A stretch of DNA of 64,000 nt, taken from assembly GCF_022045235.1 (NCBI RefSeq), contig NW_027266269.1, forward strand, positions 7,626,001-7,690,000, given 5' to 3'. The notes under the pieces are model-generated. The model did not search any database, was not told where the DNA came from, and was given only the letters and a program-made list of their open reading frames with translations. Of the stretch, positions 6,726 to 32,659 are shown piece after piece. Numbering within the stretch: position 1 is the stretch's first letter; the number at the start of each line of letters is the position of its first letter. This stretch comes from Haliotis cracherodii (lineage: Eukaryota). The translations under genes were made by a program, and so were the position numbers.

Positions 6726-9700
6726 CTAAATAGCATTTTTCGATTTTGGATATTTGATCTGCACTCGTTTGATGAGGCTGAAATCAACATCAAGGGTGAT
6801 GGCCTCGTGAAGAGGGATCCTTACTGGAGCATCCAACAGACTCTTGTCATCAACAGACATCTGAAAGAGACACGAACCAGTTCACTTTACAAATCAGGCC
6901 ACACATTCCCATCATGTTTGTTGTAATTTTGATTCACACAAACATTAATAGAACAAATATATACATCAACCAGACACATCGTTCATTGATTTCTCAGCGT
7001 AAAAAATACTCAATATATATATCAGCCCTTTCAGAGATGTTTAATGTCAATATATCAAGATTGACAACTGAGATTGACTGTTGCAGAAGCAGATATATTA
7101 TGGAGTAACATAGTCGTTATGTCTCACAAGATTCAGAGGGTTCGAAGTGTCCTCCGTCATGATATAATTGGATATTCACTCACTAACTCAGAAAAAGATC
7201 AAGTCTGCGAGATCGTATAATAGATTACATTTGTATATGTGTATGCACATAAACCCTCAAATTCCTACCTGGAACTCATTATTTGTGATTTTAATGGAGA
7301 GGTTCGACGTCACGTTGGGTGTGAACAGGAAGTCGGGAGAACTAATCTCTTTTTCCCATTGGCTTAATATCCGAGCAGTATTGTAGATTATTTCAGAGAT
7401 CGACCACCGCACAACCAGAAGGAACACCACTCTACTGCTCTCGTTTGCACTCAGACGTACCACAGACCTGAGGAAGAAAAAATATTAGTAATCAGATATT
7501 ATTGACATCATAAGCCTCACTGTAGCATGACCTTCTGATATTGAAGAAGAACTGTCTATTGCTTGTGTCAGACTTAAATAAAGCATTTGTTGGTAATTGA
7601 ACCAGGTGGCCTTCCCATAATACTGTCTTGTCTGACCTGTGGGTACCTCGGTTGCCAGTCGTTAGAGGTTTTTCCAGTTCCTGTTTTTTAGTGACTCTCT
7701 GTCATCGTGCCACAACGGGTTGGATCATTGTGTATACAGACTGCTATGATATGCTCTGATATCGAGAACATTTAGCAGTGTTCACTCAAGCCATATTCAG
7801 TATTTCCAATCCCATCAAGAAGAAATTGCATAAATATTGTAGCATGCTTTTGCAAATGCTGATTACTGTACACTTCACAGTACCTTGCGGCTCCATCACC
7901 AGCTGCCTCCACGATAATCTCCGTACCACTGGACAAGGGAGCAGGAAGAGGCGTACTGAATACGGGCACCTGTTGTAAAGTAGAGAGTGAGCAGGTGAAT
8001 AGATGATAATAACTCGTCGGGGTGGGATTGGGGAGGTTGAATTGTCGTTCTTAATACACGCACCTGTTATAAAGTAGAGAGTAAGCAGGTGAATAGTTGA
8101 TAATAACTTGTCGGGGTGGGGGTTGGGGAGGTTGAATTTGCGCTCTTAATATACTCACCTGTTATAAAGTAGAGAGTGAGGAGGTGAATTTTGCATCACT
8201 AAAAGTGAGCAGGAAGAGGCGCTCTTAATATACGCACCTGTTATAAAGTAGAGAGTGAGGAGGTGAATTTTGCATTACTAAAAGAGGGCAGGAAGAGGCG
8301 TTCTGAATACGGTCAATAAGGTCGGATTTAACTGGATAGAAAAAAATCAACCTTTTGTCTTACGTATTTTACTATAAATTAACATTAAAAACATGAAGTG
8401 ATGTATGTATGGATGGATGTACACACAACTGTTTGGTTTCCAAACATGTGCCACTGTACCTGGTCAACCCAGAGGGTCTGCATGCACCTTCCTACATTAA
8501 CTGGTACGTTGTCATGGAAACATGTGTCTGATGTGGTCGGTAGGTAGGAGAATCCACTGGGACAGGTGACATCAACGTGGGACTGGTTCCTCACCAGCAT
8601 CGATACTGCGTTCAGGACCCGAAACTCAGTGCAGGGAACTAAACATGACATATAAATCAATTATTTCCGAAGCTTCAATGCAGCTTGCGGTACTTAAACA
8701 GTTAACAGTTCTTATGACAAAATGAGTAGCTTTTGGCGATTCCATAGCGAATAGATAACCAGTAGGTGACACGAAAGATCATGAGGGCGTTACATCATAT
8801 GACGTTAATTCAATTTTGGAATAGGACACATATATTATGCTGAATACTTTCATAACAGAAAGCCTAAGGCCTTTAGTTACCCCGATGTAACAGTGATGTG
8901 CACCTACACAGTTTAGTTAATAATTGCTGGGACATTCAAGGCGTGGGTTACACAGGCCTCTATGGTTTACAGTAAATGATGTTTGAGTGAGATAAAGTAT
9001 TTTATAGTATAAATGACCTTGATCGACGTATTTGAAAATAAAAACATACTCCAACGTTTCATTTGACATTTTCACATGCTTCTCCAATTCGTAATGGTTC
9101 ATTTATCATACCGAATGGGATGAACTGACAATTAATGCCTTTGGTATTGCAAACAGGATATGCGTGTGACTATTATTTCATTCAATGTTTATGAGTTGGT
9201 TCTGATTTCAATGGTTCGTTTCACGCACACAGTTAGCTCATTGGCAATTAAAATGCTTGTTGTTGAGTCAACGTATATAGCCTTGTTTTGATCTGTGATG
9301 TTACTGATATATTCGCATTTTAGAGCCCAACCCAAACCATTAGAGTGATGAATTGAGAAATCTTCAGTCAATAAGTATCGATCTCCAACTGAAAACGTCC
9401 ACACACAAACAGACTCTATGGGGCGCAAAAGCCAAGGCATTTATAGATTGGTGATGACACCAGGTGTTCGCAAAACGTTTAACCATAGCATGGTCAACCC
9501 GTTGTACCCGCGCTCGCACAATTTGCACAACAAAGTAAGGGTTTATTTGTTGGTTAACTCTTATGTTAAATATCATTTATTATCGTGTTAAGAAACTTTT
9601 TTCTCCTGTACCGTCGTGGGTGTTTTTTTTTCAGAAATAAATGATGATGATGTTTGTTGTTCGATGCCGCACCCAGAATAATGCTTGATTAACACACACA

Positions 9701-10711
9701 TACAAGGAAGTAAATAGGCCTTTATGGCTGACCCTGTGTTACTTTCAGTGCTAAACGTACACACAAAATCATAGAAAGTAATTATCAAAGGATGTGAAAT
9801 GCATCTTAAATGTAAAAGTAAAATACTATATTTCAAATTAAATTCATATGTTGACACATGAACAGATTTACTTATCCAGATTGCTCTGACTTATATGCCA
9901 ATAAAGTTTGACTGAATCTTATCAACCAAATTGATGTTCCTGTGTGTGTTGTGAGGCCTGTAAATGGATTACAAAGAAATAAGTTTATGGTGACAAACAT
10001 GTTGTGAGGTCAGGAATGTCCTATTTGATATTCATAGTGCGATCCTTGGATCCTATTGCAAGAGGCTTTTTGAAAGAACTTTTAGCTGTAGCTGACAAAC
10101 AAAAGTCCAGACTCAATACAAAGTTTTGAGCCCCCAGCCCCCACAGACAAACCACCAACCACCCCAATCTCACCCCCCGAACCCACCCTGGAATATCAAA
10201 TGTCAGTTCCGAAATAAAAACTGGGGCAATAAATTCTATAAATTCAATACTGAAAAGAACATAACACGTATTATGATATAATATGCTTTATGATAATTAA
10301 GTTGCATGTAAATGTAAAATGTAATGTAACATTTCAGAAAGACAATAACCATTAGAATGTCAGTAAATGATATAACCGTGTTATAACGAAAGAACATTTA
10401 CCTGCATAATACTGCCAGCCTGCCTCTTGTTCACCCCCAGTGATGGAACATGAATAGTACAACCGACATCCTTGAGAGGTTGGATTGTACAGCACCATGT
10501 TGCACTGCAACTCATGGAAACACATCGACAGGCATGTAGCCTTGTCAGTAACACTGTGTTCAGTGATGAAGGTGTCATTAAACATCTGTCCATCCAAACT
10601 GACATGATGGAGAAATGTCAGATTGCCACATGACTGAAAAGCTGAACTGTAGGTAAAGGTAACGGTAACGGTAACAACAAGCTGAACAAATTCCCACACA
10701 GCCATTCTCAT
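6726..10711 (-). CDS. Secreted PAN/apple + Cys module + galectin-like domain protein (~302 aa, 5 exons)
   Basis: Exons 10711-10402, 8638-8460, 7969-7884, 7467-7269, 6860-6726. All introns GT-AG with matching phases (1,0,2,0); 909 nt open frame. Hydrophobic N-terminus MRMAVWEFVQLVVTVTVTFTYSSA. PAN Cys pattern CLSMCFHELQCNMVLYNPTSQGCRLY. C-terminal VPVFSTPLPAPLSSGTEIIV...VVRWSISEIIYNT...QWEKE...FLFTPN...IKITNNEFQMSVDDK...VRIPL follows the galectin beta-sandwich pattern (recognised by eye). Confidence 0.8.
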
Positions 10712-11569
10712 GCTTCTCGATTCTGGGAATAGTTCCAGGCATCTGGAGAAGGAGGATAATAACAGTGTGGTAATTGGTGGTATGACAAAGTATCAACAAG
10801 AAACTCGGTTACGTATTTAACATGTTAATTGGCTCTGTTCGCTAACCGATCACTGAAATATTTATGGAGTCTTGGAGGTGAAGTGGTCCTGTCATGTGGA
10901 TCCTTGAAATATGTTTTGTGCTTCACCGAGTTTATCATTTGTGAAAGAATTGCTGATAATGAGGCACACTGCTTGGCATCAATGTTACAAGTTTTGATTA
11001 TGAAATCGATTATTTCAGTCTTTTTAACTACTGGAGTATTCCTTGCATTACAGATGCAGTCGGGGCTGCATTAAGAAGAGAAGCCACTGGGACGTCGCAC
11101 GACTCCTGATTTTTGATAACGTCTCAATGGTAACAAACAATATGCGCCTCGGTCTCCATAGTAACAAAACAAGCACCACGGTCTCCATAGTCTCGATAGT
11201 AACAATATCAAACTGGAATTACAGTAAGACATTCAGTGTCGGTGACTGACGTGGTTCTGAAATGAAAATGATCCGTCAATGCTAGAGACGCAACTGGTTT
11301 TGTAAAGAAAATTTCAATGCAGAACAAATACCTCGAGGAGTGCCACAGGGGAAGGCCACATTGTGTGTTGTTTGTATCTGGCTTGACCAGGTTTTTTTGG
11401 AAGAGAAGACAGCATGTCACAATTAAATGGTATACAAGGCTTGGGCGACGAGCGCATCCTTGTCACTAATAATTGTGTTACCGTAAAAAATATTAGAAGC
11501 ACTATTTGGTGCTAAAATACATGTTACTACAGAATGTTACTCCTCAAGAATAGACAGGGTTGGTTGGGT

Positions 11570-11735
11570 GGTTGGTTATTTAACGCAGCAGCTATATGAC
11601 GGCGGTCTGTAAATAATCGAGTCTGGACCAGATAATCCAGTGATTAATATCATAATCACCGATCCACGCAATTGGGATCGATGACATGCATCAACCAAAT
11701 CAGCGAGCCTGAACACCCGATCCCGTTAGTCGCTT
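11570..11735 (-). mobile_element. SINE family A, partial
   Basis: Reverse-complement similarity to the family. Confidence 0.75.
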
Positions 11736-11744
11736 CAATATTTT

Positions 11745-12790
11745 ATTTTTTTATGCCATACCGTGGCGTCCGTCGTCTGTCGTCTGTCGTCCGTACGTAA
11801 ACATATTTTTTCAAACGACTTCTTCTTCTGAACAACTAATTGGAAATTAACGAAATTGGGCTGGAAGCATCCCTAGGTGGTGGGGATTAAAATTGTACAA
11901 ATGGTATCGCTGACCCCGAGGGACTGAGGGCCGGGGTAAAATAGGGGTAATTTGGCTGTATTGCTTTAAACAACTTCTTCTCTTGAACTAAGGACAGATA
12001 TCGACCATATAAGGTTGGAAGCATTCTCCGGTGGTGGGGATTCAAATTGGAGAAATGTAGGGGCTGAAATGCCAACCGCAAACCCCTAGGGATTAAGTTC
12101 TTGGCCAAAAACTTTGAAACAGTTGAGATCCCCACCCTATTACCATATACATGTATACATGTAGTTGCTAAGTATAACAAGACAAACACATATGCTACCA
12201 GGATGACCCTAGGAATACAGCCCCATTCTACTAAAACAGTCCCTAGCTTCAGGTCATAACTTTGAAAGGTCGGGATCCCCTCCCCACAACCATTTCTTCA
12301 CTTTCTAGGCATAAAGAGATGAATACCTGTGCCGTAGCTGCAGTTTAGGCAACTGCCTTACGCATAATGTTCACAATAATACATTTTGTTGTCCGTAAAT
12401 TTTAGAAGTTGTCTTCCCACACAGATGGCGGGATTTCCAACGTATTTGATACTCGTAATTGTGTAAATGGAGCGGGGCCAATGTGAGAAATTGAATACTT
12501 ACTTGGAATCTATATACTTATACTTGACATCACAACACAAACACATTCATGTTACCAAAATCTGCTTTGGAATATGTTGCCACCCCAGGGATCTGGCTCG
12601 AAAATGACTTTGGGTCATAATTACTTAAAAGATCGTCAAAATCCCCATCCTATATACCCATGCTCATCTTCATTTCACAATAAATCCATTCTATCAGGAC
12701 TGGTCTTTCTGTTCAACCTTGACCATAACATGCAAACAGATATTACCCCCCCCCCCCCCCCCCCCCCTTTATAAACAGATACATTGGGGG
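11745..12790 (+). mobile_element. Helentron-associated (HINE-like) non-autonomous element
   Basis: T-rich start, a (CGTC/TGTC)n microsatellite, then internal repeats ttcaaacgacttcttc...gaagcatccctaggtggtggggatt shared in inverted orientation with 32660-33097. Confidence 0.55.
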
Positions 12791-12794
12791 GTGG

Positions 12795-12960
12795 TAGAGT
12801 CCGAAGTGATGCAGGTCTCAGACGTTAACCACCTCGGTGAAACCCACGAGCACGGGTATGGTGCTGCCAAACCTAGAAACATAATCGGGGCAACCGGGAT
12901 TCGAATCCACAATCATAGCGAATCGCGGCGCCTTAGACGACTGGGCCACCCGTGCCCCCC
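12795..12960 (-). mobile_element. SINE family B, partial, short-head variant
   Basis: Same head and body, lacking the segment between the A and B boxes. Confidence 0.75.
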
Positions 12961-13419
12961 GTGTTCCTGTGTGTGTACATATTTCTCGTGTTCCTGTGTG
13001 TGTACACATTTCTCGTGTTCCTGTGAGTCCGGCTTTGGGTTGGGTTATCCCGGTCGCTCTTTCGCTCGTGGTGGATGAAAGTGATTTGATCTGAGACGTC
13101 AACAGTTTTGAAATAATTAATTATTATTGTCATACATGACAAGATAAATGGCAAATAGTTCTGCTACTTAAGGGTTAAGGTTTCAAGATCAATAAGCCTT
13201 TTACGCTGCTTCACTTCATTTGATATTTCCTTATTCATTTCGCACTGTAGGCCGGCCATGGGGCCCATTGTACGTTTCGATCGTCAAGTCCACAATGGAC
13301 ATTAACGAGCTTTTGACATTGATGGCATGGGATATATATAATGAGAGGTTTTTCATGGTTTCAGCATTGCATGATGACAACAATATGTTAAATTTATGTT
13401 ATGTAGGATGGACATAATA

Positions 13420-14100
13420 TTTTCCCGCAATATATTTGTTTCTAAGATTGTTATATGTTTTACAAATTAACAGAAAATGGTATTCGTTTTCGATAAGACC
13501 ATTGTTACAGAGGTTTCAAAGTCTTTGGTCTCTTGGAACATTATGAAATGATCGTGATTCAAATTCAAATACGAATGGTAATGGATCAGAAACTGATTGG
13601 TTTTCCCAAACATAGCCGAAACCAAATTTATATAAGGTATTTTTACCTTTATACAACAGATTATAGTTCTTTCTTGGGTAACGACTATTAGGCATAGATA
13701 TAACCTTACACCAGTAAATAATACAACGCTTATATGCTGAAATGTACAAAGGATATCGACCGTACTCGCCTCTTACGACATGATCGCGTGTCGAAGACTT
13801 AACGCCTAAAATTGTTTGCATGCTAATAAATGGATCTGTTCAATTTCTTTGTATTTATTAAAGCCCGGATTCGATTTATTGAGCCAAGTCATTAATGAAC
13901 ATATTAAACAGAAAGGGGCTTAGTATACAGCCTTGACGCACTCCAACATTACACGGAAAAAATCTGAAAGTTGGTTTTCACATGTAACGCAGGAGATAAC
14001 ATATTTATAAATAGATTGGATATTTTTATACATCTTTAGCGAGACTCCCTGTACGTTTAATACGCGCCACAATTTTGATTGTACAGAACCATCAACAAAA
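13420..14100 (-). mobile_element. Degenerate LINE (CR1/L2-group-like) RT C-terminal fragment
   Basis: Fragments LWRVLNVQGVSLKMYKNIQSIY...LSDFF and ILGVKSST...VVRGEYGRYPLYI...YWCKV...FGFGYVWENQ. Confidence 0.7.
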
Positions 14101-14209
14101 TCAACACTGATATTGAGATTATGTCCCACATCATTGGCTCGTTTAAGAAAACTGTGGAATGCCTTGTTTTCATCATGCGTCTTGACATGCTTCACAAGAG
14201 GATCATCAG

Positions 14210-14570
14210 ACATGAAATTTCAAGCTAGTATCTTGAAATTTTGAGAAAACAAAATAAAAACAAATGGCCCTAAAAGGCTTCTGTAGGCATGTGGAGATAG
14301 CAGGGTTGAATCGATATAAGTTGAAATTTCAAGATACTCTTTTGAACTTTCAAGATACAGAAGATGAAATTTCAAGATACAACGTTGGGATTTGTCTTTA
14401 TATCTTTTTCATGAAATTTCAAGATACTACGTTAAAATTTTAAGATACTACGTAAAAATTTCAAGATACTAAGTTTTTAGAGACAATTTTAAAATACATA
14501 CTCAGTTGAAAATTCAAGGTTATTATCTTGAAATTTCAACTGATGTATCTTGGAATTTTAATCCAGAAGC
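14210..14570. repeat. Foldback-like cluster of GAAATTTCAAGATAC repeats in both orientations
   Basis: About 10 direct and inverted copies are visible. Confidence 0.65.
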
Positions 14571-14958
14571 TTGCGGTACAATAATGGTTGAAAGGGTGCT
14601 GGCAGCTTAAGTCAAATTAAGGGAAGAATAGTATGCTCTTTCGAAGGAAAACAAATGTTTTATGGACAATCGAGAGCAGTGAAAAAACGGCTTCCTTCAA
14701 TACTTCTTAATCTACATATTCCTTAGTCATTAATCATGACAAAATGATTAGCTACTAAAAGCTAATGGCATTTGTGACATTTGTCTTGAAAGTTTGCAGG
14801 TTTCTTTGTGTGAGTAATTACTTTCAATGTATTATTAATTGTTTGAGTGCTCACACTGTTTCTCGGATTTCGGCTGTTATTAAGTATGTTCTAACCTTTC
14901 ACGTTTCTACTGCGCAGTCACCTGTACATACTTCTATACCAGAAACACGGATCCTCCC

Positions 14959-16569
14959 ATGATGTGGGGTATGTTGTATGCGTGGCTCCCGTTGACGTGT
15001 AGCCTGTATGGTATCGAGGGGAGGACCTCTGTTGGTATCAGATTGTGCAGAGAAGGATGCGGAACACGAATGTTAGATCAGTCTATGAAGATGATCACCT
15101 TTGTCTGCCATTTGAACACAGAGGCCAAACGCGAAACTGGAATTTCTGACAAAAACAACGAGGTGGGTGCAAGCAATGGAAAAGTAATCATAAATGTATA
15201 ATAATATGAGAAAGTTTAATATCATGCACATGAAAATGAGAGAGAACAAAATTACATTGAAGTACAACTTGTTCCGCAGTGGTTTGTGTGGAGATCCTTG
15301 CTGCCTTTGTGGTAAACATGTGAAAACTGTATCATTACTTCATGGTAGCTATGGGAATATTCTTTGCAATGATGTATGACAAAACAACGTATTGCTATTG
15401 ATTGGATCTTATGTGGCAATGACAATGTTACTCTTACTCGAAATGTGATATCACCAAACAGTGTAATTCTTCATAGTAAGGACCTGTGAACATCCGGGGT
15501 AGAGTTGATCTTCTAGTACCCATGCTTTTCGTACAGGCGACTAATGGGATTGGGTGGTCAGGCTCGGTGACTTGGTAGATGCATGTCATCTTATCCCAGT
15601 TGCGTAGATCGATGCCCATGATGTCAAACACCGGATTGTCTGGTCCAGACTCAATTATTTAAATACCGCCGACCGCATTGCTAAACAAACAAACACATAT
15701 ATTTTCCTTGTCTTCATTGAAATTCCTGCATTCTGATTAGCTAAATTGGGGTCATGTTGTAGCATTCATTTCCAAATGAATGTAAAAATATGCCACGCCC
15801 ACCGAATCGAACTACTTTTATTGTTAAGGAATGTCGGAGAATCCAAATATTACAGCCGAGGTTATTCCCTTTCTGCTCAAGTGTATTCGTCATGCACAGG
15901 ACACAGAGCGAAAGTCCTGCATATTCATTGTCCAAACAATCCTTGGAGACCGAAGGCCGAGAAGGAATGAGACGGCAAACGTACAGGCTCGCTCACAGGA
16001 TGTTTTCCCGCTCGCCCCGGTTCCACAACTTTATGTCTTCGGTTTCTTTTCCAACTAGCATGTTTCCAACTCTGTCCTCCCGTTCTCACGGAACTAATGT
16101 CTGAATCCGGCGGTAGCTGACCATATCATTTGAAATAGCCACCTTCTCCCGGACACATTTGTTCCGGCTCGTGACAGTCTGATTGATTTTTGCCTCTTGT
16201 CTTGATTGACAGGTCCTATGAACATTGTTTTGATCTTACTCTCCGTAAATTGGCTTCTGACTTTGTTGGCGTGTCAAGTTACGTGCAAGTTAAAAAATAA
16301 CCTGATTCATGTTACGCCAAAATATCTATTCCTACACCTTGAATGTTTATCAATCTCGTCATTTTTGTCTGCTTTGATATATACAACTTTTTTTGTTTAA
16401 ACTAATGTAGATAAAACATGTTTTCGTTGTCGAACTTAATTATAAGCATTGATTGTGTATTTTTTTCGGTTCATTGAGGTATGAATCTGCTACATACAGT
16501 TTGCACATCGGAGTTTCAAACAACAACGAACCGAAAAAACCTTATTTAGCGAAAAAATACACAGTCAAT

Positions 16570-16630
<61 letters not shown>

Positions 16631-19600
16631 CTGCAGGATTGTAAAGGTTATTCTTGCAGTGAATGAACATTTACTGTTGACAGAAACACGGCAACGTTTC
16701 CCAGGTGACGGGAATAACATGCATGAGCTCTACCCATCATGTGGAGCCTTGGTGCGTATTGGGTAAGTAGACTTTGTTGCAAATCACTTAAACACCCAAC
16801 AGGCAGTACTTAATCAAAGACTTCGGCATTTGGAACTCACTGGTTCAAGGCGCGGCAGCCTCATGTTCACAGTTCCGGCCCTTAATTGTACAGGATCCGG
16901 TGATTGTTTGGTAAAATAATCAATTAAAGTTATGTGTTTATGTTTCATCAAAATGACGTCTACTATGTACTTCAAACTGATTTTTCCTGCAATATATACT
17001 CATAGTTAAATGTTATTGCGATAAAGAGAATAGGTTAAAATTTAGTGGCGGTGATGGAATAATTATGATAAATGGAAAGTACACTGTCTGAAGAGAGGGT
17101 AGTCCACATGAAGAGCCGTATGCAATGGAGTTATGTCTCTCGAGGGAAGTTCACCACCATGCAGGCCTGACACATTCACTTCATTGAGGACACTAACCGT
17201 TGAAGGAACTTGGGAGTGGCATTCCGAATCTACGGATGCAAAAGCAGGAGCTCTATTTCATCCAAAACATGCCAGATTTTGAAATCCTGAAGGCCAGGCG
17301 AACACATGAACATATACTGCAGCTTAACTTAAACAGCATGCGGTCTGGCGTTATCTAGCTGCAATGTCCAGGGACGTTCTGCTGTCAAAATGGTAAAGCT
17401 GACGTCTGCACAATTTGATCCCGGTATCTCAGTGCATACAAATTCCTTATCAAGTCCTTCCTCTAGCCCTATCTCAGCCCAGGTTATAACGCCATCACCT
17501 CCAAAGTGATCACATGGCGTGATACAACGTTCGTCTCGACGTCTGTAGACATCTGTCCTGCCATCAGATCGGCGAAAAATGAAAAATGACTGGGCAACGA
17601 AGAGGACCCTTCTCCACTGACATGCTGTTCACCACAAGCGTTGTCTGCGCCACTGAGATGTCGACGTTGATGTTCCGCGGAATGGATTGGGCGTCTGACA
17701 AACGTGGCTGGTGCGGATGCTGTAGAAGTGGTCGGTTTGTCCTCGAAGATAGGCCTCTGTTGCAAAGGATGGTACCGGCTGCCAGAGTTGCTGTCTGGAA
17801 CCTGTGTCAAAGATGCCTGGTTTGAACCCATTTGTCTTGAAAAAAGGGTTTTCACGTGTGGACGGCCACTACAGGCTCGGTCTCCGACGTGTAGATGTGT
17901 TTTTGTCGCTAACGTCACCACAAGTGTCATATAGAACGTTGAATTGACGTTCGACATCACGCTGTGAGGTACCAGATTCAAGCATACCCGTGGCTCACAT
18001 TTTGTCATTTTCACTTTGGCGTGGCATTGTAAAATGTCATTATACGACCAAAAAAGTCTCTACACTTCAAGCTTAGATTGGAAATATCTAGCCTTTGATA
18101 AATGACATTTGAGGTCATTTCCCTCCACAAAATTTGCAATACAAGCAATATTTGTTAGTATGCATAGCTTCGGCTTTTTCGAACACGTATTCCCTGGTTC
18201 AAATTAAAACCTATTAACCTTTGTAGCGAAAGAAACCAACGTCACAATGACTGTCTATGAGTATATTAAGCAAACATGATGTTACATAGATCTAGTACCT
18301 GTTCACGTTGGTGTGAAATGCAACCTTTCAATGTCAAGCTGACGCCTCATGATAACAGTACAATTGTATCCACAAGTTATTAACTCCAAGTTGAAGGGCA
18401 AAACCGGAAGTATAATACAGAACCTCAATTTTTGTACTAGTCAAAGTTTGCTAAGGATCACCGCTTTAAAAGGGAATACGTCAAATTGTGTGCATCTGTT
18501 GGAATAGCCAAAGGCAATATCCCATCCCAATCTTGATTGAACCCCTCCCATAGCGGTCATGTTCAGCTATGTTGGAATTCTTAAATCTTTGTCTTCGCCA
18601 CACTTTCGGGAACAACAATCTGTCTCTGACGTGTGTTTTTGTCAGTTGCTTCATCACAAGTGTTATATAGACAAGACAGCATCTAGATTCATCAGTGCAA
18701 AGTACTGGCGCCTTTTCCAGGTCTGTCCAATCTTCAACCCAAACCAAACGTGCCTGCCTGTGAAGTCGGGTCAGTGGGGTGCGAATGCATGCCAACAGTG
18801 ACTGGCGTCAGCCTCACAGGTCATTTCTTAGTGTGGTGGCAGTCACGACGTGATGATGCAATCAGGAGAAATTTTGCAGTGTGGTGGAACGATCACAAGC
18901 ATGGGATGATGATCCAAACGTCTGGTATCAATTCCATGCTTTACTGATCACACTGTAACACACAACACATTTGCAACATGACGTTGTGTTGACCCAGTTG
19001 TCAAACAACGTCTTTGACGTTGAGGGGCATAAGTGCATCAGTTGTTGCAATCCTTAGTAGCATATGTTGTTGTGCTCTCTGATAATGATGTGAAACGATT
19101 CTTTCACGACACATCCAAACAAAGGTTTTCAAGCACCTCGTGCATATCGTACTCATCACTGCATGTCTCTGTCAAAACTTGAACTTCAGCAAACTTTGAG
19201 TAGTATATAATAACAGAAGGGACTGTATATTTCTATGCTAGCAGCGTAATAATATATTTGCAGGTGAACATAGGAACTGTTTAACATCTGTACAAGGTGA
19301 ACATATGGTCAGAGTAACGTCTTTACAGAGTAAACATTTGGCAATGTAACAACTTTATATAGTGAACATATGGGCAATGTAACATCTTTACAGGGTGAAC
19401 ATATGGGCAATGTAACATCTTTACAGGGTGAACATGTGAACAATGTAACATCTTTACAGGGTGAACATATGGACAATGTAACATCTTTACAGGTTGAACA
19501 TATGGACAATGTAACAACTTTACAGGGTGAACATATGGACAATCAACATCTTCACAGGGTGAACATATGGACAATGTAACATCTTTACAGAGTGAACATA

Positions 19601-22135
19601 TGGACAATGTAACATGTTCACGGGGTGAACATATGGGCAATGTAAAATCTTCACAGGGTGAACATTGGGTCAATGTAACATCGTCACAGGGTGAACTTAT
19701 GGACAATGTAACATCTTTACATGGTGAACATATGGACAATATAACATCTTTACAGGGTGAACATATGGACAATGTAACATCTTTACAGGGTGAACATATG
19801 GACAATGTAACATCTTTACAGGGTGAACATATGGACAATGTAACATCTTTACAGGGTGAACTTATGGACAATGTAACATCTTTACAGGGTGAACATATGG
19901 ACAATGTAACATCTTTACAGGGTGATCATATGGGCAATGTAACATTTTTACTGGGTGAACATTTTACGGAGTGGACATAGAGGTGATGTAGTATTGTGAA
20001 CATATTCTCAATGTTTACAGAGTGAATGTAATATGTAAATATAGTGACAATGTAACATTTTTTCAATTTGAACGTTTCAGAAATCGAACATCTTTACAGG
20101 ATGAATATAGTGACAATGTCACATCTTTCGAAAGTGAACGTTTGTGATATCGAACATCTTTACAGAGTGAATATAGTGATAATGTGTCCTGTTTGCAGTA
20201 CAGTGCAGGGTAGTCCACAAGAAGGGGAGTCGGCGTCTTGAAGGCAGGTCTCCGGGGCAGTACAATACCCCGGTTGTATCCAACACAGAGTACAGCTGTA
20301 CAAGACGAAGGCTTCCCAACGTGTCCCGCTGCATCACGGGGAAGGGAGGAGGCATGGAAGAGGGGGATGAAAACACCGACAGCAGCGCAAAGAAAACTCC
20401 AGAGAAAGAAGCAACGGCCAAACCAACAGGTGTACATCAACAGAACAGCTTTTATTAATATGCATGTGCATGACTGGTGTGTAGTGATCCGAAATCGTAA
20501 CTATCGTGAAAGATCTAATACTATGATNNNNNNNNNNNNNNNNNNNNNNNNNNNNNNNNNNNNNNNNNNNNNNNNNNNNNNNNNNNNNNNNNNNNNNNNN
20601 NNNNNNNNNNNNNNNNNNNNNNNNNNNNNNNNNNNNNNNNNNNNNNNNNNNNNNNAGAGCCAGGATATTTTTCCAGTCACCAGATTCGGAATATCAAAGA
20701 TGCTTTACTTACCTCACTCGTGAAAGGTGACCTATTAAAATTCTAAATCAAAGAGGAAAAAAACACTGGGTTGTTTTGTACTGTAGTCATTTTGGCATGT
20801 AGTGATTTTCGAAGGATACCAATAAACTTGTTACATATTGTCAACAGTTTCACAGTATCATGATTTTGGAAATTTAATTCGTAATACACATCAATATGTG
20901 AAAACCAATTCTGCCCCTGGTATCAATATCAATACTTTTGATTTTTCTAGGTTACATGGAGCTACAAGCTGGGAAGGACAAGATCCATGTAAAGCAGTAC
21001 AACATATGTAAGACTTGGGACCAAGCATCGCAGCAGTGTAGGACGGACGGGGGGCATCTCATAAAGACAGATACAAATGACAAGCTAAAGGCCATCTACT
21101 CTTTGCGTAAGTTACCAAGACTACAACAAATGAGCCTATGCTTTTCCGACCGACCACTTNNNNNNNNNNNNNNNNNNNNNNNNNNNNNNNNNNNNNNNNN
21201 NNNNNNNNNNNNNNNNNNNNNNNNNNNNNNNNNNNNNNNNNNNNNNNNNNNNNNNNNNNNNNNNNNNNNNNNNNNNNNNNNNNNNNNNNNNNNNNNNNNN
21301 NNNNNNNNNGAAAAGGAGTTTTTACCCGCACAGATGTCACCCTTACCATGTGAGCTTGCCTTCCCTTCCACTGATTTACCCACCCGCCAGAAACCAAGGA
21401 GAGCAGTGAAGCTGCCTCATCTGTCTCATATTTACATCTATGTGTAAAGATTCAGAGTGACATAAAAGTCAACAAGGGACGGCGTTATTTTTCCCTGTGT
21501 GTTTGATCAGGGTTACTGCATTCAAAGGTTTTTGTAAAGTGTTCGAAACGTTTGAGGGTGGACATGTTAGGTACCTTTAATAATTTCTGTCAGCAACCAA
21601 AATGATGTCCGATGCATTTCCCTGTTTTAACTTGTACGACATGTCCCCATTATGGATATGGGGAAATGTGTGGATCATGTGATATATATCAGTTCTATAT
21701 CAGATATACGTGACCCACACTGGAATAGGGAGACAGCAGCAGATGTGATATATACCCTCGATATATCAGATATACAATACCCACATTGGATAGGGGGAAA
21801 AGAGTAGATAATGTAATATATACCCTCTCTATATTCGTTATGCATGACCCACAATGTATAGGGAGACGGGAGCAGATGTGATTTATACCCTCTCTGTATC
21901 AGAAATACATGGCCAACACTGGATAGGATTAAAGGATCGTCATGATGATGACAATTACATCTGGATTGACGGACTACCTCTGAACTTCGAAAAATGGGCT
22001 GTGGGTCAACCAAGCCACAAGAGTAAGGACGGACTGCAGGAGAACTGTGTTGAAGTTGGTCACAAAGGCTTTTTTGGGTTGTTCTGGAATGACAGATCAT
22101 GTGATGGATTACTACCATTCTTATGTCAGAAATAA
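14959..22135 (+). CDS. Secreted C-type lectin (perlucin-like CTLD) with putative N-terminal degenerate PAN and Cys modules (~307 aa)
   Basis: CTLD exons 20951-21106 and 21903-22135 are firm: TWDQASQQCRTDGGHL, HWIGL, WIDG, WAVGQPS, ENCV, WNDRSC, FLCQK; phase-1 join. Putative upstream exons 14959-15183 (SP + GIRLCREGC...VCHLNTE), 16684-16762 and 20199-20429 join in frame with phases 0,1,1. These are less certain: the donor at 20430 is weak and an N-gap lies at 20528-20655. Confidence 0.7.
15483..15695 (+). mobile_element. SINE family A
   Basis: Similarity to the family. Confidence 0.75.
15720..16250 (-). mobile_element. Possible Crypton (DUF3504-type) remnant
   Basis: Minus-strand fragments WNRGERENIL and DNEYAGLSL...LEQKG resemble the Crypton/KCTD1-like motif; heavily decayed. 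Confidence 0.35.
16573..16627. repeat. (TA)n microsatellite
   Basis: Visible. Confidence 0.95.
17080..18060 (-). mobile_element. Degenerate Tc1/mariner element
   Basis: VGDRACSGRPHVKT resembles the Tc1 GRPR/HTH motif; downstream sequence resembles decayed transposase. Boundaries approximate. Confidence 0.55.
18435..19205 (-). mobile_element. Internally deleted Tc1/mariner transposon with terminal inverted repeats
   Basis: TIRs TACTAGTCAAAGTTTGCT (18435) and AGCAAACTTTGAGTAGTA (ends 19205). Transposase remnant PLTRLHRQARLVW...VLCTDESRC...VWRR...EHDRYGRGSI. Confidence 0.8.
19255..20190 (+). repeat. 33-bp minisatellite (GGTGAACATATGGACAATGTAACATCTTTACAG), ~20 good copies plus degenerate flanks
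   Basis: Directly visible tandem array. Confidence 0.95.
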
Positions 22136-22382
22136 GCGTTCAGTTATCGACAAACAGCTTCCGTTGTCTTTGGGTTCTGTATTCACAGACATACGAATAT
22201 GAACAATCCCACAGATTTGACATGGTTTCGTACACGTTTATAGCTGACCTCATGAAAAGCTGTATTTACATGGTAGTAGAAACCTGAATTACTAGGTTAA
22301 ATGTATGTGGTGCTTTTTGTAGTTTGTTTGTTTGTTTGTTGTTCACCGATTTGTGAATTACATGTATATACATATGTTCTGT

Positions 22383-22610
22383 TTTGTTCGTTTGTTGTTT
22401 AAGGCCGCACTCAGCAATATTCCAGCTATATGACGGCGGTCTGTAAATAATCGAGTCTGGACCAGACAATCCACTGAATGACATCATGAGCATCGATCCA
22501 CACAAGTGGGATATGAGGACATGCATCAACCAAGTCAGCGAGTCTGATCACCCGATCTCGTTAGTTTCCTCCTACGACAAGCAAAGTCGCCTTTAAGGGC
22601 AAGCATGGTT
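22383..22610 (-). mobile_element. SINE family A
   Basis: Reverse-complement similarity to the family. Confidence 0.8.
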
Positions 22611-23212
22611 TTGTAAGATAAACTGTCAAACTGGGTGTACAATATAACATAATGGACTTCTTAATGATTCATTTATTGTGCAATAAATCACAACACTCTT
22701 CATCATTGTGTTTGAAGGCTGGTATTTTTGTTCTTTCTTCCACAGCTTCAAAACACGCATTCTTTTATTATTATTATTTTCAGGACATGGTGTGCAGCGA
22801 ACAATTTCATTGTCTCATTATTAGATAATTTATCTCGTTGGAGAATTTGAAAAGACGTGACATATACCAGGTGAAAAGAAAATTTGTAATCTGTAATTTT
22901 GTTTGCAAACAATCCAGGAAATCTATGATTTGAGCATAATATCAGTTGCCATGACAACCTGTTTAGTTTGAAGACCTTGGAATATATAAAACATGAACAT
23001 CACTGAGATTTTTGATAACTCATATTCCACTAAAATATTCTCCGATTGTGGTCTGTCAGTCAGAAGTATTAAATCACAATAACCACATCTGACCGATACA
23101 ATTAATTTTACGTGCGGTGTGGAACAAAACCTTGCTTGGCTGGCTTTCTCCTTATGAGAGGTTCATGCTTGATGACTAAGGAGATCGGTTAATCTTTGAA
23201 AAATCAAATGAT

Positions 23213-25760
23213 TTGACACAATGGAACTTTTTTTTTTCTAAGACTGCAAAACGTCAAGCAGCAATCCTAAAAGATCCTAAAATCATAAACCTGTCTTGTC
23301 ATCCCCTCAGTGTAAATGAAGTCAGTTTACTGAAAAAAGGTTTAATGTTTACACCTACACCTACGCCCAATCAGGAGGCTATCAAAACAGACTTAAAGAA
23401 CTTTTACTCGAAAAGTGAGACTGGCTAAATATTTTCAATCTGAAGAGGACAACGACGTTAAATGGGATGATGACGCAGGCAATAGGAAATATGGTGAAAG
23501 TCTGGTGAAAAATGAATCCAGTTTTATACCTTCACGCAGGAGAGAAAAATATGTGGAAGACTTTTGTGATAGACTTGAAAGTGCTCCTCTTCATGTAAAA
23601 CAAACAAAACAAAACCTATCTGAATGTGAATTAAAGGCCTTACTATTCTTAAAAATAACACAGACATCGTTATTAAAGAAGCCGATAAAGGGGGTGCTAT
23701 TGTTATTATGAATAAATCATTTTATCAAAGAAAGATAATGTCCATTTTAATTGATGATCAATATTATAGCAATCCTAGTAAAAGAGAAGAAAAATCTGTC
23801 CAGAATAAGGTTAAGAAATTGTTAGATAAGTATGATGACGAAATTCTAGACAAAGAAAAGGACTATCTAACCAATTTTGAACCTAAAACCGCTAATTTTT
23901 ATGGCCTACCCAAAGTACATAAAAGTAAACGTATTCAAAAGGAAATTAATGATAAAAATTGTGAAGTTATTTCTATTGAAAATCCGATGATTAACCATTT
24001 AGACCAATTGTGGGAGGACCCGAGAGCTGTACTCAGCGTCTTAGCAATTTCATAGATATTAATCTTAGGCCTTTATGTAAACATGTAAACAGTTTTCTCA
24101 GAGATGACATTGATTTTTTATGTAATTTACCTACTGAGGTACCGGAAGGATCTATGTTAGTTAGTTTTGATGTTGTTAGTTTGTATGGTAATATTGAAAC
24201 TGAGCTCGGACTGGACGCTATCAGATACTGGCTGAAAGAATACCGCCATGAAATATCAGATAGATTTTCGGATGAGTTTATCATTGATGCATTGAAGTTG
24301 GTTATTACCAATAACATGTTTTATTTTTAATGGATCTTATTATTCACAAAAGAAAGGAGTAGCCATGGGTACTAAGGTAGCCCCTACTTATGCAACCCTT
24401 GTTTTGGAATTTTTAGAGAATATGTTTTATGATAAGGTGAGAGATACTCTTGGTGAATCTATGAAAGAACAAATTGAATATTCATGGAAAAGGTTTTTAG
24501 ACGACTGTTTTATCATATTAAAAACCAGTGAAAGTCAACTTACAGCTGTTCATGAAATTTTAAATTCACTTAATGCGTCACTCAATTTCACTATGGGAAA
24601 AAGCGAATCCAGTTTAACCTTTCTCGATGTAAGAATCAATTTAATATCTGGGAGATTTGTACAAACTGATATCTTTTATAAAGATACTGATACGCACCAA
24701 TATTTGGATTTCGGATGATGTCACCCGTATCATACAAAACGAAATATCCCTTACTGTCTCGCAAGACGTATTTGTACCATTGTTTCCGGGAATGATGTTA
24801 AAACTACCCGCCTTGCTGAACTTAAGAGTTTCCTACTGCATCAAAATTATCCCGCAAAGCTAATTGAAGATAGCATACAGAAGGTGCTAAGTATTAAGCA
24901 ACTAAAACTGAGAGAAAAGTCTGAAGAAAACAATATGGGGAATAATTAAACTCTAGTATCTACCTTCAACCCTAATCATGAAAAAACATTATCCATGGTT
25001 CAAAGATACCTGCCTATTTTGAATCAAAGTATTAAAATGGAGAAGATATTGAGCAAATACAAAATTATCAACAGCCAAAGACAACCAAAAAATCTTAGAA
25101 ATTTTTTGACAAGTTCTAAATTTGATTCTGTTGTCATCACTCCACAGGTTTCTAAGTGCGGTGACAAACGTTGCCTTACTTGCAGCAATATAATTGAAGG
25201 CTGTTCAGTCCAAATTACAAAGGACACTAAATTTACTGTAAAACAAAATATGACTTGTGATACTAGAAATGTTATTTACTTGATTGTTTGCAGTGGATGC
25301 AATGAAAAGTATATCGGAAAGACAGGACTTAAATTAAAAAGAAGAATGAATCTTCACCGTTCACAAATAAAGAAGCCACACAACCGCACGATTCCACTCA
25401 GCGAACATTTAGAAGCATGTGGAAACGGCAACTTTTTAGTTTTCCCGCTATATAAGCTAAATTTTTATCATGAACCTACATTGTTTCAAAAAGAGCAACA
25501 TTTCATTCATAAATACGCGCCTAAGTTAAATGTAAAGGCGTAAGTTATTTGTCCAATGTCACCTTGGTATTGTGACGTCATAGTTTCCTAAATGTTATGA
25601 CGTCACGTAACTATATGTTACTACTTCATGTCCGTTATTCAGTTATGGCCTGATGAGACTCGTACGTGGTACGAGTTGAAAGCGCTAGCCTATTAAAACT
25701 GTGTTCAATCTTACTTATTTAATTATAACTACATTGTGCCTGAGAGTTAGAACTTTGCTG
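23213..25760 (+). mobile_element. Penelope-like retroelement (RT + GIY-YIG endonuclease), frameshifted/decayed
   Basis: Consecutive ORF fragments with IINLS, LLKKGLMFTPTP, FYGLPKVHK, SFDVVSLY, MGTKVAPTYA, WKRFLDDCF, TDIFYKDTDTHQYL and the GIY-YIG motif NVIYLIVCSGCNEKYIGKT. Several stops and frameshifts. The 3' region carries a hammerhead. Confidence 0.93.
25643..25697 (+). ncRNA. Type I hammerhead ribozyme in the Penelope 3' terminal region
   Basis: GGC-CTGATGA-G ACTCGTAC gtg GTACGAGT T-GAAA-GCGC-TA-GCC: intact core, perfect 8-bp stem II, short palindromic stem III, stem I GGC/GCC. Confidence 0.8.
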
Positions 25761-25762
25761 TG

Positions 25763-25764
<2 letters not shown>

Positions 25765-25816
<52 letters not shown>
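25765..25816. repeat. (TA)n microsatellite at the Penelope 3' end
   Basis: Visible. Confidence 0.95.
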
Positions 25817-25819
<3 letters not shown>

Positions 25820-26165
25820 TTTCTCATATTCGCAAAAGACATGTCTTCAGGTTTTAGAGTCAAGTCACTGATTTATGGGTTTAACCGATTTCTTCCTCAG
25901 TTAACATACCGGCCTAATATGTGGCATTTGATCATGTGGATGACATCAGACTGGGACTGAAATAACAATTTGTCAAATTCTGCCAAATTTGTTACATTGT
26001 CTTTTTTGTTCAGCTGCTTTATTGCAAATAAATATCATGGGACGTCCCACACTCTTCTGCCTTGCACATTTTGTCACGACAATTTCCTCCAGAAACACAG
26101 CAATGTCATCATCGGCCTGACGTCATATAACACATTCGCTTGAGGTTATGTCCAACGGAAAAAGA

Positions 26166-29100
26166 TCAGCTAGTTCTGTCTAAAAGACTGTGATCTTTGG
26201 TTCCGTCTAAACGTCAGTGATGTTCTGTTACGTCTAAACGTCAGTGATGTTTTGTTCTGTCTATATATTTATCTTCAGATACCAGCTGGATATTTGATAA
26301 TCTTGTAATTGATTTGGTCGGTGCATTAGCTTACTCCATGTGAAAGTAGTTTATTATTCGGATATGGTTGAGGAAGCTGTTTATTGATCTATTTATACAG
26401 GGAAAGATGCATTATTTATTGTGTATCCAAATGTGAGGTCACGTATTATCATTTCATAAACACAAACATAACAAAAAGTCCCCAGTGAGTATCCGGGTTA
26501 TTGGTCCTCAGCAACCCATGCTTGTCCTGAGAGGCGTCTAACGGGATTTGATGCATGTCATCGTTTCCCAATTGCATAGATCAATGATCATGATGTCAGT
26601 CACTGGATTGTTTTGTTCAGACGATTTTATTTACACATCACCGTCATATAGTTGGAATATTGGTGAATGCCGGGTTAAACAATAATAACAACAACAACAA
26701 AAATGATTTAAAATCCACCTTTTTAAGGGTATATTATTACACTAGTAAAGTGAATAATATGATAGTTCCTTCCTTTGAATCAGTTCATTTGCCAGGTGCT
26801 GTGAAAAAAGCCTTTTTTTTAGAATGCATCATTAACAAATATTACAGCATATATACTTAGCAAAGTATGACATAAAGGGAATCTGTGTTTGGGCTCTCCC
26901 AACCCTAATATTGTAACTTGAACAATTTTGCCATGTTTTGGTATTTGGTGCCTAAATGTCAGTTGGTTGTTATATCAATCAGGAATTACAACTGGCGTTG
27001 ACAAAATCAGGCATCGACAAAATATGTTGTGTTGATTACCGATTTGTGAATTGTATACATATGTTTTGTTTTGTTTGTTTGTTGTTTGACGCTGCACTCA
27101 GCAATATTCCAGCTATATGACGGCGGTCTGTAAATAATCGAGTCTGGACCAGACAATCCAGTGATTGATATCATGAGCATCGATCCACGCAATTGGGATA
27201 CGATGACATGTACCAAACAAACAAGTGAGCCTGGCCACCGGGTCCCAAGCAAAGTCGCTTTTTACGGCAGGCATGGGTTGTTGAAGATCCCTTCTACCCC
27301 GGATCTTCACGGGTAGGGGTCATGATATATTTTTATATACCGCACACATCTAAAGAAACTGAGTGTTCAATAATATCCCAAAAATATTCATGATACAAAC
27401 ATTTTTGTGTTCAGTATAAAAGCACACGTGATTACACAGTTATGTATATGATGGAAGTAACTGCAAAGAATTAGACGATCTGTTCACACTTATCAAGTAT
27501 TTTATGACATACCTATTGCCAAAGCGGAGTAGTCACATTTGCAGGATTCACAGCCCTTAGAATCTCTGAGATACCCCAGTGGACAGTGAAGTTGACATTC
27601 AAATGCTGGACACCCTGTAACAGTGAGCGAATACTGGCCACCCCACAAACAGTAAACATATAATGGACATCCTGTAAAAAGTGACCGAATACTGGACACT
27701 CTGTGAATAGTGAACGAATACCGGACGCTCTGTTAACATTAAGCCATGATAGATAACTGACGAATCATTCAGAAGATAATTTGAAGTCGCTTCTAGAAAA
27801 CAAAACTATATGTATCTTATTTCACGTTCATATAGATTTCTTTTCTTGAGGAAAAAGTGGGGCGTTACACCAACGAGCACTTGGAGATTGCCATTCTTCA
27901 TTCATTGGGCACAGGAGGCGAACCCGGGTCTTCGGCTTGACGAGCGAACGCTTTAACCACTAGGCTACCCGACCGCCCAGATATCAAAAGACCATGTCTG
28001 AAGAAATTAAGGGGATAAAATCAGGACTTGTTGGCGTGGTGTCAGTATTCTGTGCGGTATACATGTTAAACTGTGGCGTGGTATCTCAGTGGACAATTAA
28101 TAGTCAGTGGACTATTAAACCAGCATAAGGCCTGACTTGTACAAGAAGCCCCCTAACACACACATTCAATAATCTTGAAATCGACGTTAAATTCCATGTT
28201 ACCTCAACTCATCTCACATGCAAGAATCAATGATTTGAAATGTATCTAAGTCATGTCAGGCTGAGAGTATCTGTAACAAGGTAGTTCAACATTTAAGTGT
28301 CACGTGGTTAAGGTGAGGTGAGGGGAAGTGGGGTTTAATGTCGCGTCAAAGAGTATTGCACTTATATTGCGACGTGCAAGCACGTGTGTGAATGCGTGTG
28401 GTTGCTTGTACTAGTTCGGACTGATGCTGAGTTTATTGTTCTCGCCCACTGAGATACCATGCCAATATTTAACATGAAAACACTGCTCAGACACAGTATT
28501 CTGACACGATTTTTTAACGACTTTTGTTATGATGCGGCCGGGGATTGAACTTCCGCTCTCCGGGGGAAGCTCTACCACTGGACCATGGAGGCTGTGGCAT
28601 GGTTAAGAGGAACTACAGACTTATATATTGGAGAATTAAGAATAAAGCAAAAAAACCCTTTCCACAATCATAAGAAATCTAAAGTCCAACTGTATCAATC
28701 TGTATAAGCAATGGCTACCTGCTGGCTGGGTGTACGTGGTCCTCATGCACTCAGCACCACAACCATTGGACTTGCAGGCATAACCAGAGGGACAGGATCT
28801 GTTCACATAATCCCCACACAGGAGAAGACAACTCCCTCTTCGGGAATGGGGAATGCTGCAGACCACTAAATTCGAAAACATGGTGATAGCAGTATGAAGG
28901 CGTGAATCACATAAAATACTTATTCCTAAAAAATGTAAACATGTCTTTACTACCCTTTTCGCGAACACCTGATGTCATCACTGATTTTCAGTGGCCCTTT
29001 CACATAGTTTTCACAGCTATTTTGCCCTTCACGCCAAATGGAATCAGTTTCAATGAATAGTCAAAAATGATTTTTCTTACGCAATGACGTTGATATTAAT

Positions 29101-30866: not shown

Positions 30867-31004
30867 CTTGAGCTGTATCAAATGTGACCTAGAGACACAG
30901 CTTATCTTTGTGTGGCGCTCCTACAGTGTATTTCCAGGGAATATATCATAATTCCTTTCCATGTGGTAAACACACTAAACCTTATGCACCAAATTCTCTT
31001 TGAA

Positions 31005-32040: not shown

Positions 32041-32659
32041 AATATTTCTTTCTTTCAAATTTTCTTAAAACTGATACAGGTGTTATAGTTGTCATTAAGG
32101 CTTGCCAATCGAGTTCAAGTTCCAACAACCATGTATGATTCTTGCCTAGAGACAAACTCAACTTTCCATTACTACATATCAGTTGATGCAGCTGGATGCA
32201 GTCCTTACTGCCTCACCCCATATGCCACTGCATCCTCAAGAAACGCAACTTCCCCTCAGGGTCCCGTGTTGTGGTCCAGATTACCTCATCCCACAGTTGA
32301 CCCACCCACCACTGATACCTTCATCCAGTCGAGATGACACACCCACCAACATCAGCATACAGTGAAGGTTGCTACCCCAACCACTGATATGTGCATCCAG
32401 TCGAGATGGCTACCACACCTACCAAAATCATCATACAGTGAAGGTGGCTAACACACACACACTATTATAAATCCCCTCTTGCCCCACTCCCCATCCCCAC
32501 ATACACACAGAGGCACAGAGTAGCCCCAGCACCCCCCACCCCTCCCACACCCACACACCCACACCCACAGAGGCACAGTACAGCCACCACCCTCACATAC
32601 ACACAAACTACAGGCCCGTCCTCCCGACCACCCCCACACTACAGCCGCTCCATTTGTAC

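What the first reader, a model, noticed from the sequence alone, without database searches (positions are those of the whole stretch)
7940..27740. Recurrent tandem repeats built from splice-acceptor junctions (up to five introns in three genes)
Seen: arrays at 7940-8312 (80-95-bp units), 19255-20200 (33 bp), 21673-21926 (~65 bp), 26173-26263 (27 bp) and 27608-27740 (~29 bp) all lie on the intron side of a predicted 3' splice site. Their terminal unit contains or resembles the real acceptor AG and, in most cases, the first exon bases. Units are unrelated between loci, so each array arose locally. No comparable arrays were noticed at donor sites. Inference: a biased local-duplication process at acceptors that creates rows of decoy or alternative 3' splice sites and may drive intron growth or exon-edge variation. 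I do not know whether this has been described.
Basis: partly seen in the sequence, partly recalled or inferred. Interest (0 to 1): 0.7.

Follow-up and report, generated by a model that had tools for sequence, protein, structure and literature searches.

The report
Abalone "mirage" repeats at exon borders
Three of the five repeats are short head-to-tail copies of a gene's own intron-exon border, a likely harmless repeat type already described in lancelets, and a count over about 770 other introns of this genome shows them at least as often at intron starts as at intron ends.

Summary
All five arrays exist. Three (7950-8312, 21653-21927, 27602-27738) are copies of an acceptor plus the first exon bases, in PAN-galectin, C-type lectin and WAP-antistasin genes. 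For the last, spliced contigs of three runs use the terminal AG despite a higher-scoring in-frame decoy, and two runs carry one more unit. The 27-bp array is a dispersed repeat beyond the gene's last exon, and the 33-bp array's exon is unproven. Such arrays are the published lancelet "mirages" and resemble the human F7 VNTR; this scan noted them before, in this genome and in at least 14 genomes in all. The claimed acceptor bias failed its own test. In 671 dynein introns, 15 acceptors against 26 donors had a local junction copy; pooled with lectin and Sushi exons, 18/770 against 31/740. Two post hoc asymmetries remain: arrays ending 1-35 nt short of the AG are 2.4-fold in excess (38 against 16 expected), and every acceptor-spanning unit holds at least 24 intron bases, as if it must keep a branch point. 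Ordinary, with a small testable rule.

The parts
7950..8312 (-). Array 1: acceptor mirage, units 79-95 bp, fills about 340 of the 490-bp intron 8459-7970; decoy AGs end at 8064, 8159 and 8238 and score 7.7, 7.5, 7.5 against 7.3 for the real one; use of any would shift the frame or add a stop
7884..7969 (-). Gene 1 exon 3 (start of galectin-like domain); acceptor AG at 7971-7970 lies in the terminal unit of array 1
   Evidence: open frame across five exons; Gal-bind_lectin E 0.001 on the next exon, none on this one; no RNA test
8460..8638 (-). Gene 1 exon 2
   Evidence: frame continuity; no meaningful Pfam match
10402..10711 (-). Gene 1 exon 1: hydrophobic N-terminus and PAN domain
   Evidence: PAN_1 E 1.7e-6
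7269..7467 (-). Gene 1 exon 4, galectin-like; exon 5 begins at 6860
19263..20198 (+). Array 2: 33-bp minisatellite, about 28 units, each ending in an AG; last unit ends in a plausible acceptor at 20197-20198; no exon bases in the unit; status unresolved
   Evidence: 18 internal AGs at or above the 5th percentile of real acceptors
20199..20429 (+). Putative exon after array 2; in frame with the lectin exons; unproven
   Evidence: frame joins; run X16 shows a 3-base deletion and a more consensus-like donor; no Pfam match or paralogue
20951..21106 (+). C-type lectin exon, first half of the domain
   Evidence: Lectin_C E 8.7e-4
21653..21927 (+). Array 3: acceptor mirage, 65-68-bp units with about 25 exon bases; copy at -65 has lost the AG, copies at -133 and -199 keep it but score below the 5th percentile
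21903..22136 (+). C-type lectin last exon; acceptor AG at 21901-21902 (an AG 27 bases upstream in the same frame cannot be excluded)
   Evidence: Lectin_C E 6.1e-11; phase-1 intron at the same place in paralogues; not tested by RNA
26173..26263 (.). Array 4: 27-bp dispersed minisatellite, not at a used acceptor
   Evidence: related arrays at C6:11.45 and 11.87 Mb; RNA-like joint ends the gene at 26798; AG score 1st percentile
26784..26798 (-). Coding start and stop of the last exon of gene 3
   Evidence: joint 26798-27513 with CT..AC ends in runs X1, X2, X3
27513..27614 (-). Gene 3 antistasin exon
   Evidence: Antistasin E 5.5e-9; both joints in three runs
27602..27738 (-). Array 5: acceptor mirage, 29-bp units (18 intron + 11 exon bases); nearest copy lacks the AG; in-frame decoy at -57 scores 10.1 against 9.4 and is not seen used; one more unit in runs X1 and X16
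28719..28881 (-). Gene 3 upstream exon, WAP-like
   Evidence: WAP E 0.6, weak; joint to 27614 in three runs

Best explanation
Arrays 1, 3 and 5 are tandem copies of the genes' own intron-exon borders ("mirage" minisatellites), likely made by ordinary local duplication that strikes anywhere in this genome's introns and likely tolerated because the copy next to the exon remains the one spliced. Shown: the units contain the acceptor and first exon bases; the terminal AG is the one joined in spliced contigs for array 5; unit number differs between genomes; minisatellites occupy about a third of sampled introns; junction-containing arrays occur at donors at least as often as at acceptors and near the rate expected from uniform origin. 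Inferred: slippage or unequal exchange as the engine; exon definition as the reason the last AG wins; purifying selection as a filter that lets an acceptor duplication persist only if each unit is long enough on the intron side (about 24 bases or more) to keep a branch point and pyrimidine tract in front of the real AG, or if the nearest copy has lost its AG.
For: Junction copies. Terminal AG used in X1, X2, X3; extra unit in X1 and X16. 275 arrays in 218 of 671 dynein introns; spanning acceptor 11, donor 18, expected 17.6 each. TRF-free 15 against 26, control 0 and 0.6. Same direction after removing dispersed units (8 against 18) and with TRF on the other strand (9 against 19). Lectin set 1 of 72 against 1 of 38; Sushi set 2 of 27 against 4 of 31; pooled 18/770 against 31/740, Fisher p 0.058. 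Arrays of 11-12 copies with intact AGs sit in conserved dynein genes. Acceptor-spanning units hold 24-272 intron bases (11 of 11 at 24 or more, P 4e-4 under uniform breakpoints), donor-spanning units as few as 8; branch-like motifs peak 20-24 nt before the AG. Precedent: PMC3087553, PMC3902484, PMC1557585.
Against: 3 of 11 window acceptors against a 2.3% background has P 0.0017 before allowing for selection of the window. Array ends are not uniform at acceptors: 38 end 1-35 nt before the AG (16.1 expected, P 2.5e-6) and only 8 end 36-75 nt before it (17.9 expected); donors fit the expectation (21, 17). Microhomology in array-free introns is flat and does not explain this. Some of these near-acceptor arrays carry an AG in the unit, so acceptor-spanning counts may be slightly low; near plus spanning is 49 against 39, not a significant difference. 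Array 5 breaks the 24-base rule (18 bases). The direct acceptor-donor contrast in intron-part length is not significant (Fisher 0.06-0.2). RNA evidence is contig-level, from coded runs guessed to be RNA, for one array only. The sample is three gene families, with junctions predicted by protein alignment.
Confidence: 0.85

Rival explanations
1. A mutational process tied to the 3' splice site (for example breaks or polymerase pausing at the branch point-pyrimidine tract zone) places duplication breakpoints just upstream of the AG, so arrays are truly acceptor-biased in origin, and selection then removes many of those that include the AG.
For: 38 array ends in the 35 nt before the AG against 16.1 expected and 21 at donors (binomial p 0.036); 36 against 21 after removing dispersed units (p 0.063) and 39 against 23 on the other strand (p 0.056); lectin introns show 9 near-acceptor arrays among 72 acceptors (four share one 51-bp unit, probably one event) against 1 among 38 donors; not explained by microhomology.
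Against: The excess is partly offset by deficits at 36-75 nt and across the AG (57 observed against about 52 expected from the junction to 75 nt), which looks like a shift of edges more than extra births; Sushi exons show 1 near-acceptor against 3 near-donor arrays; bins were fixed after a first look at the table; no mechanism was tested.
Confidence: 0.25
2. One reading: a process specific to acceptors builds AG-containing arrays and spares donors.
For: 3 of 11 acceptors and 0 of 11 donors in this window.
Against: 15 against 26 in 671 dynein introns; 18/770 against 31/740 pooled; lancelet mirages occur at both borders (PMC3087553).
Confidence: 0.04
3. The decoy acceptors are functional alternative 3' splice sites that vary the edges of secreted defence or shell proteins, for example a 19-residue in-frame insertion from the -57 copy of array 5.
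For: The -57 decoy is in frame, open and scores above the real site; contigs drop rare forms, so minor use is not excluded.
Against: Three runs join only to the terminal AG among the joints listed (709 lesser rows not shown); all three array 1 decoys would shift the frame or add a stop; unit number differs between genomes, which changes the offsets.
Confidence: 0.07

Closest known systems
Lancelet 'mirage' minisatellites (Adh3, globins BflGb6 and BflGb9, troponin C, PGBD5); PMC3087553 and PMC3902484, passages read; the original Adh3 paper was not held
   Same: Tandem units made of an intron end plus an exon start (BflGb6) or an exon end plus an intron start (BflGb9); splice signals kept in many but not all copies; normal splicing; unit number varies between haplotypes; unit sizes 10-160 bp.
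   Different: Mollusc, not cephalochordate; here a rate was estimated (about 2% of acceptors, 4% of donors) and a constraint on unit anatomy is proposed; somatic instability was not tested.
Human F7 intron 7 37-bp VNTR (PMC1557585, abstract and outline read)
   Same: First unit spans the real junction; the following pseudo-sites are functional in sequence but silent.
   Different: Donor side, explained there by 5'-to-3' scanning; at acceptors the last copy must win, which simple scanning does not predict.
Intron gain by tandem duplication of AG/GT proto-splice sites (Rogers model as discussed in PMC3087553; human paralogue cases in PMC2812944, outline and section 9 read)
   Same: Local duplication that multiplies splice signals; array 2 has an AG-GT at its left edge and an AG at its right edge.
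   Different: No new intron is shown here; arrays 1, 3 and 5 sit in pre-existing introns (the array 3 intron position is shared with paralogues).

Membership tests
Mirage minisatellite | Tandem units that span a real exon-intron boundary | tested here: met
   Arrays 1, 3, 5. Not met for array 4; inconclusive for array 2.
Mirage minisatellite | Many but not all copies keep the AG or GT | tested here: met
   Array 1: 3 of 3; array 3: 2 of 3; array 5: 3 of 4 upstream copies.
Mirage minisatellite | Normal splicing to the authentic terminal site | tested here: inconclusive
   Met for array 5 in contigs of three runs; not tested for array 1; no transcript evidence obtained for array 3.
Mirage minisatellite | Length variation between haplotypes or individuals | tested here: inconclusive
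   One more 29-bp unit of array 5 in X1 and X16; these runs differ from the window at a few per cent of intron letters and may be other species, so variation within the species is not shown.
Mirage minisatellite | Locus-specific unit (not a dispersed repeat) | tested here: met
   Arrays 1, 2, 3, 5 match nothing else in about 1.9 Mb of fetched loci plus the window (not the whole genome). Not met for array 4.
Mirage minisatellite | Somatic instability (reported for Adh3) | not testable with these tools
   Needs single-molecule typing of tissues.
   15/671 against 26/671; 18/770 against 31/740.

The most novel reading that the evidence does not exclude
Intronic minisatellites record a general, unreported asymmetry between the two ends of introns: duplication edges pile up in the branch point-pyrimidine tract zone just short of the AG, and acceptor-spanning units persist only when each carries its own branch point. 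A genome with arrays in a third of its introns then becomes a ready-made mutagenesis screen for how the spliceosome picks the last of many identical acceptors, and possibly evidence for duplication coupled to the 3' splice site.
Probability: 0.3. Interest if true: 0.55.

Novelty: new member of a known kind. Interest (0 to 1): 0.2.

Why it matters
As single loci these are further examples of a published repeat type. The useful product is the count: it removes the acceptor-bias claim and gives a first rate for this genome (about 1 in 45 acceptors, 1 in 25 donors). If the edge pile-up and the 24-base rule hold genome-wide, they would show in natural variation what an acceptor needs to beat identical upstream copies. 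They also warn gene annotators and primer designers, since exon heads and tails are often duplicated into introns here.

Tried and rejected
RNA for gene 2: runs X1, X21 and X22 have no contig on the lectin exons or on 20199-20429; no evidence either way. No listed holder was on record as RNA, so X1-X3 are taken as RNA because their contigs skip GT-AG introns that DNA-like X16 does not. The lack of cover at 25935-26144 is not used as evidence; the joint to 26798 is. Homologue search with the lectin exon found nothing at E 1e-8. The exon after array 2 has no second match in the genome and none in 62 lectin loci. Array 2 as a coding 11-residue repeat was rejected: two 32-bp units shift the frame and stops follow. 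Microhomology as cause of the near-acceptor excess was rejected (flat across bins in 266 array-free introns). Strand bias of TRF and dispersed repeats were rejected as causes. One search used a too-narrow null (5 expected) that ignored spanning units and was replaced. One search had a self-overlap bug and was replaced. The original Adh3 mirage paper is not held. No structure or complex prediction was needed.
Full report
Setting. The window is G000:C6:7626001-7690000 in a 1.18-Gb, 80-contig genome. Earlier notes on the same genome call it an abalone; I did not test the name.

Genes. Gene 1 (minus) has exons 10711-10402, 8638-8460, 7969-7884, 7467-7269 and 6860 onward, which join into one open frame, with a PAN domain (E 1.7e-6) and a weak galectin match (E 0.001). 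Gene 2 (plus) is a C-type lectin with exons 20951-21106 and 21903-22136 (Lectin_C E 8.7e-4 and 6.1e-11); paralogues have a phase-1 intron at the same place. Gene 3 (minus) has a WAP-like exon, an antistasin exon (E 5.5e-9) and a short last exon. Contigs of three runs guessed to be RNA skip 27615-28718 and 26799-27512, both with GT-AG ends.

The five arrays. Array 1 fills most of a 490-bp intron; three upstream copies keep the AG and score as well as the real acceptor on a matrix built from 671 dynein acceptors (7.5-7.7 against 7.3), and use of any would shift the frame or add a stop. Array 3 has three upstream copies; the nearest has lost the AG and none reaches the 5th percentile. Array 5 has four; the nearest has lost the AG, and the copy at -57 is in frame and scores 10.1 against 9.4. 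Among the joints listed only the terminal AG is used (709 lesser rows not shown, contigs drop rare forms). X1 and X16 carry one more 29-bp unit. Array 4 lies 535 bases beyond the start of the last exon, its AG is at the 1st percentile, and its unit forms longer arrays at C6:11.45 and 11.87 Mb with shared flanks: a dispersed repeat. Array 2 ends in a good AG in register with its unit, and the next 231 bases join in frame to the lectin exons; X16 has an in-frame 3-base deletion and a more consensus-like donor there, but nothing else supports the exon. So 3 of 5 are confirmed, 1 rejected, 1 open.

Test of the acceptor bias. One search located about 18 dynein heavy-chain loci; I fetched 13, most in part. 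Exons were mapped with my own spliced aligner against the two best reference proteins; 671 of 826 predicted introns passed the flank-score filter. TRF (period 12 or more, score 50 or more) gives 275 arrays in 218 of 671 introns, 15% of intron bases. Arrays spanning the AG number 11, spanning the GT 18; if the founding unit arose uniformly along the collapsed intron, 17.6 are expected at each. A TRF-free test (local copy of a 37-base junction window within 400 bases, score 26 or more) gives 15 acceptors and 26 donors, against 0 and 0.6 with introns shuffled (p 0.12). Removing 81 dispersed arrays of 398 gives 8 against 18; TRF on the reverse strand 9 against 19. To test gene class I added lectin genes (62 of 150 listed matches examined, 4 dropped; 1 of 72 acceptors, 1 of 38 donors, window excluded; paralogues not independent) and Sushi exons (62 domain hits, 27 acceptors and 31 donors callable; 2 and 4). 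Pooled: 18/770 against 31/740, Fisher p 0.058, leaning to donors. In the window, 3 of 11 acceptors and 0 of 11 donors score; P 0.0017 at the background rate, but the window was picked for this pattern.

What is asymmetric. Array ends fall 1-35 nt before the AG 38 times (16.1 expected, P 2.5e-6) and 36-75 nt before it 8 times (17.9 expected, P 0.008); donors give 21 and 17. Acceptor against donor in the near bin is p 0.036, and 0.056-0.063 in the two controls. Stacked units show several arrays copying the pyrimidine tract up to the base before the AG, and a few that hold an AG after all. Microhomology is flat. Second, all 11 acceptor-spanning units hold at least 24 intron bases, 7 of them 24-35 (P 4e-4 under uniform breakpoints, threshold set at the observed minimum), whereas 5 of 18 donor-spanning units hold under 20; branch-like motifs peak 20-24 nt before the AG. 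The direct contrast is not significant (Fisher 0.06-0.2), three of the 11 units show no branch-like motif by my pattern, and array 5 is an exception with 18 bases, though its nearest copy lacks the AG. Both results are post hoc.

Mechanism. Shown: anatomy, rates, terminal AG use for one array, unit-number difference. Inferred from general knowledge of minisatellites and splicing (recalled, not tested): a short duplication by slippage or unequal exchange that crosses a junction leaves the exon-side copy intact and then expands; at donors the first site is used (as shown for F7), at acceptors the site nearest the exon is favoured by exon definition provided it still has a branch point and tract in front of it. 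That one condition would thin out acceptor-spanning arrays and leave those that stop short of the AG.

Literature. PMC3087553 (passages) describes minisatellite-like duplications of intron-exon boundaries in lancelet globins and Adh3, names them mirages, states that both borders are duplicated, that splicing is unaffected and that unit number varies. PMC3902484 (passages) adds troponin C and PGBD5. PMC1557585 (abstract and outline) covers the F7 donor VNTR. PMC2812944 (outline, section 9), PMC10078293, PMC4039745 and PMC6905558 (passages) were seen; the last reports a polymorphic 27-bp intronic minisatellite in an abalone gene without tying it to a junction. No supplements were read; those of PMC3087553 and PMC6905558 hold the alignments. 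Six searches returned no paper on mirages in molluscs or on acceptor-donor rates; the library lacks most subscription journals. This scan's notes list 42 findings with these words in at least 14 genomes, and several acceptor and donor cases in this genome; they were read after my reading was fixed and only added the PGBD5 lead.

Verdict. Real for three arrays, known in kind, not acceptor-specific. Interest 0.2; the edge asymmetry is the only part worth a genome-wide follow-up.

Noticed in passing
window 19263-20198: Array 2 begins at an AG-GT and ends at an AG, so the whole array could be an intron made by tandem duplication of a proto-splice site; no upstream exon was identified.
   Followed up: partly
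L220, L229, L243, L150 (C6 lectin subfamily): A shared 51-bp array of 8-14 copies ends 17-29 nt before the acceptor of the last lectin exon in four paralogues; other members of the subfamily show none in TRF.
   Followed up: partly
L225:5471 and 7997 (oriented to the gene): Both lectin-domain introns of one gene end in unrelated arrays (64 bp x 9, 30 bp x 53), each stopping 11 nt before the AG.
   Followed up: no
G000:C3 dynein (L101-L109), C56 dynein (L113-L124), C8 dynein (L064-L070): Acceptor mirages of 11-12 copies with intact AGs in conserved dynein genes, one with 50 exon bases per 82-bp unit; good minigene candidates.
   Followed up: partly
G000:C23:72312142-72313785: The same dynein AAA1 segment (profile positions 83-120) matches three times within 1.7 kb: a duplicated exon or a long mirage.
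   Followed up: no
G000:C34:14968120-14974056: A single 2112-residue open frame holds more than 30 Sushi domains without introns.
   Followed up: no
G000:C5:13931684-13970689: Nine equally scoring Sushi matches at about 4.86-kb spacing, a young large tandem array or an assembly repeat.
   Followed up: no
L253:2865-3979, L254:3176-3424, window 26173-26263: The 27-bp unit of array 4 is a dispersed family; L253 and L254 share flanking sequence, suggesting carriage in a mobile element.
   Followed up: partly
window 23200-25540: Degraded reading frames resembling a reverse transcriptase with a terminal nuclease (Penelope-like); label recalled, not tested.
   Followed up: no
window 16630-19200: Two degraded stretches resembling Tc1/mariner transposase on the minus strand; label recalled, not tested.
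   Followed up: no
window 38500-40920 (minus), 43980-47180 (plus): A coiled-coil plus C1q-like gene and a small cysteine-rich secreted-type gene; labels by eye, not scanned.
   Followed up: no
window 48100-49200 and 62830-64000; 30985-32042: A roughly 1.1-kb diverged direct duplication seen by eye, and a 200-bp x 5 array.
   Followed up: no
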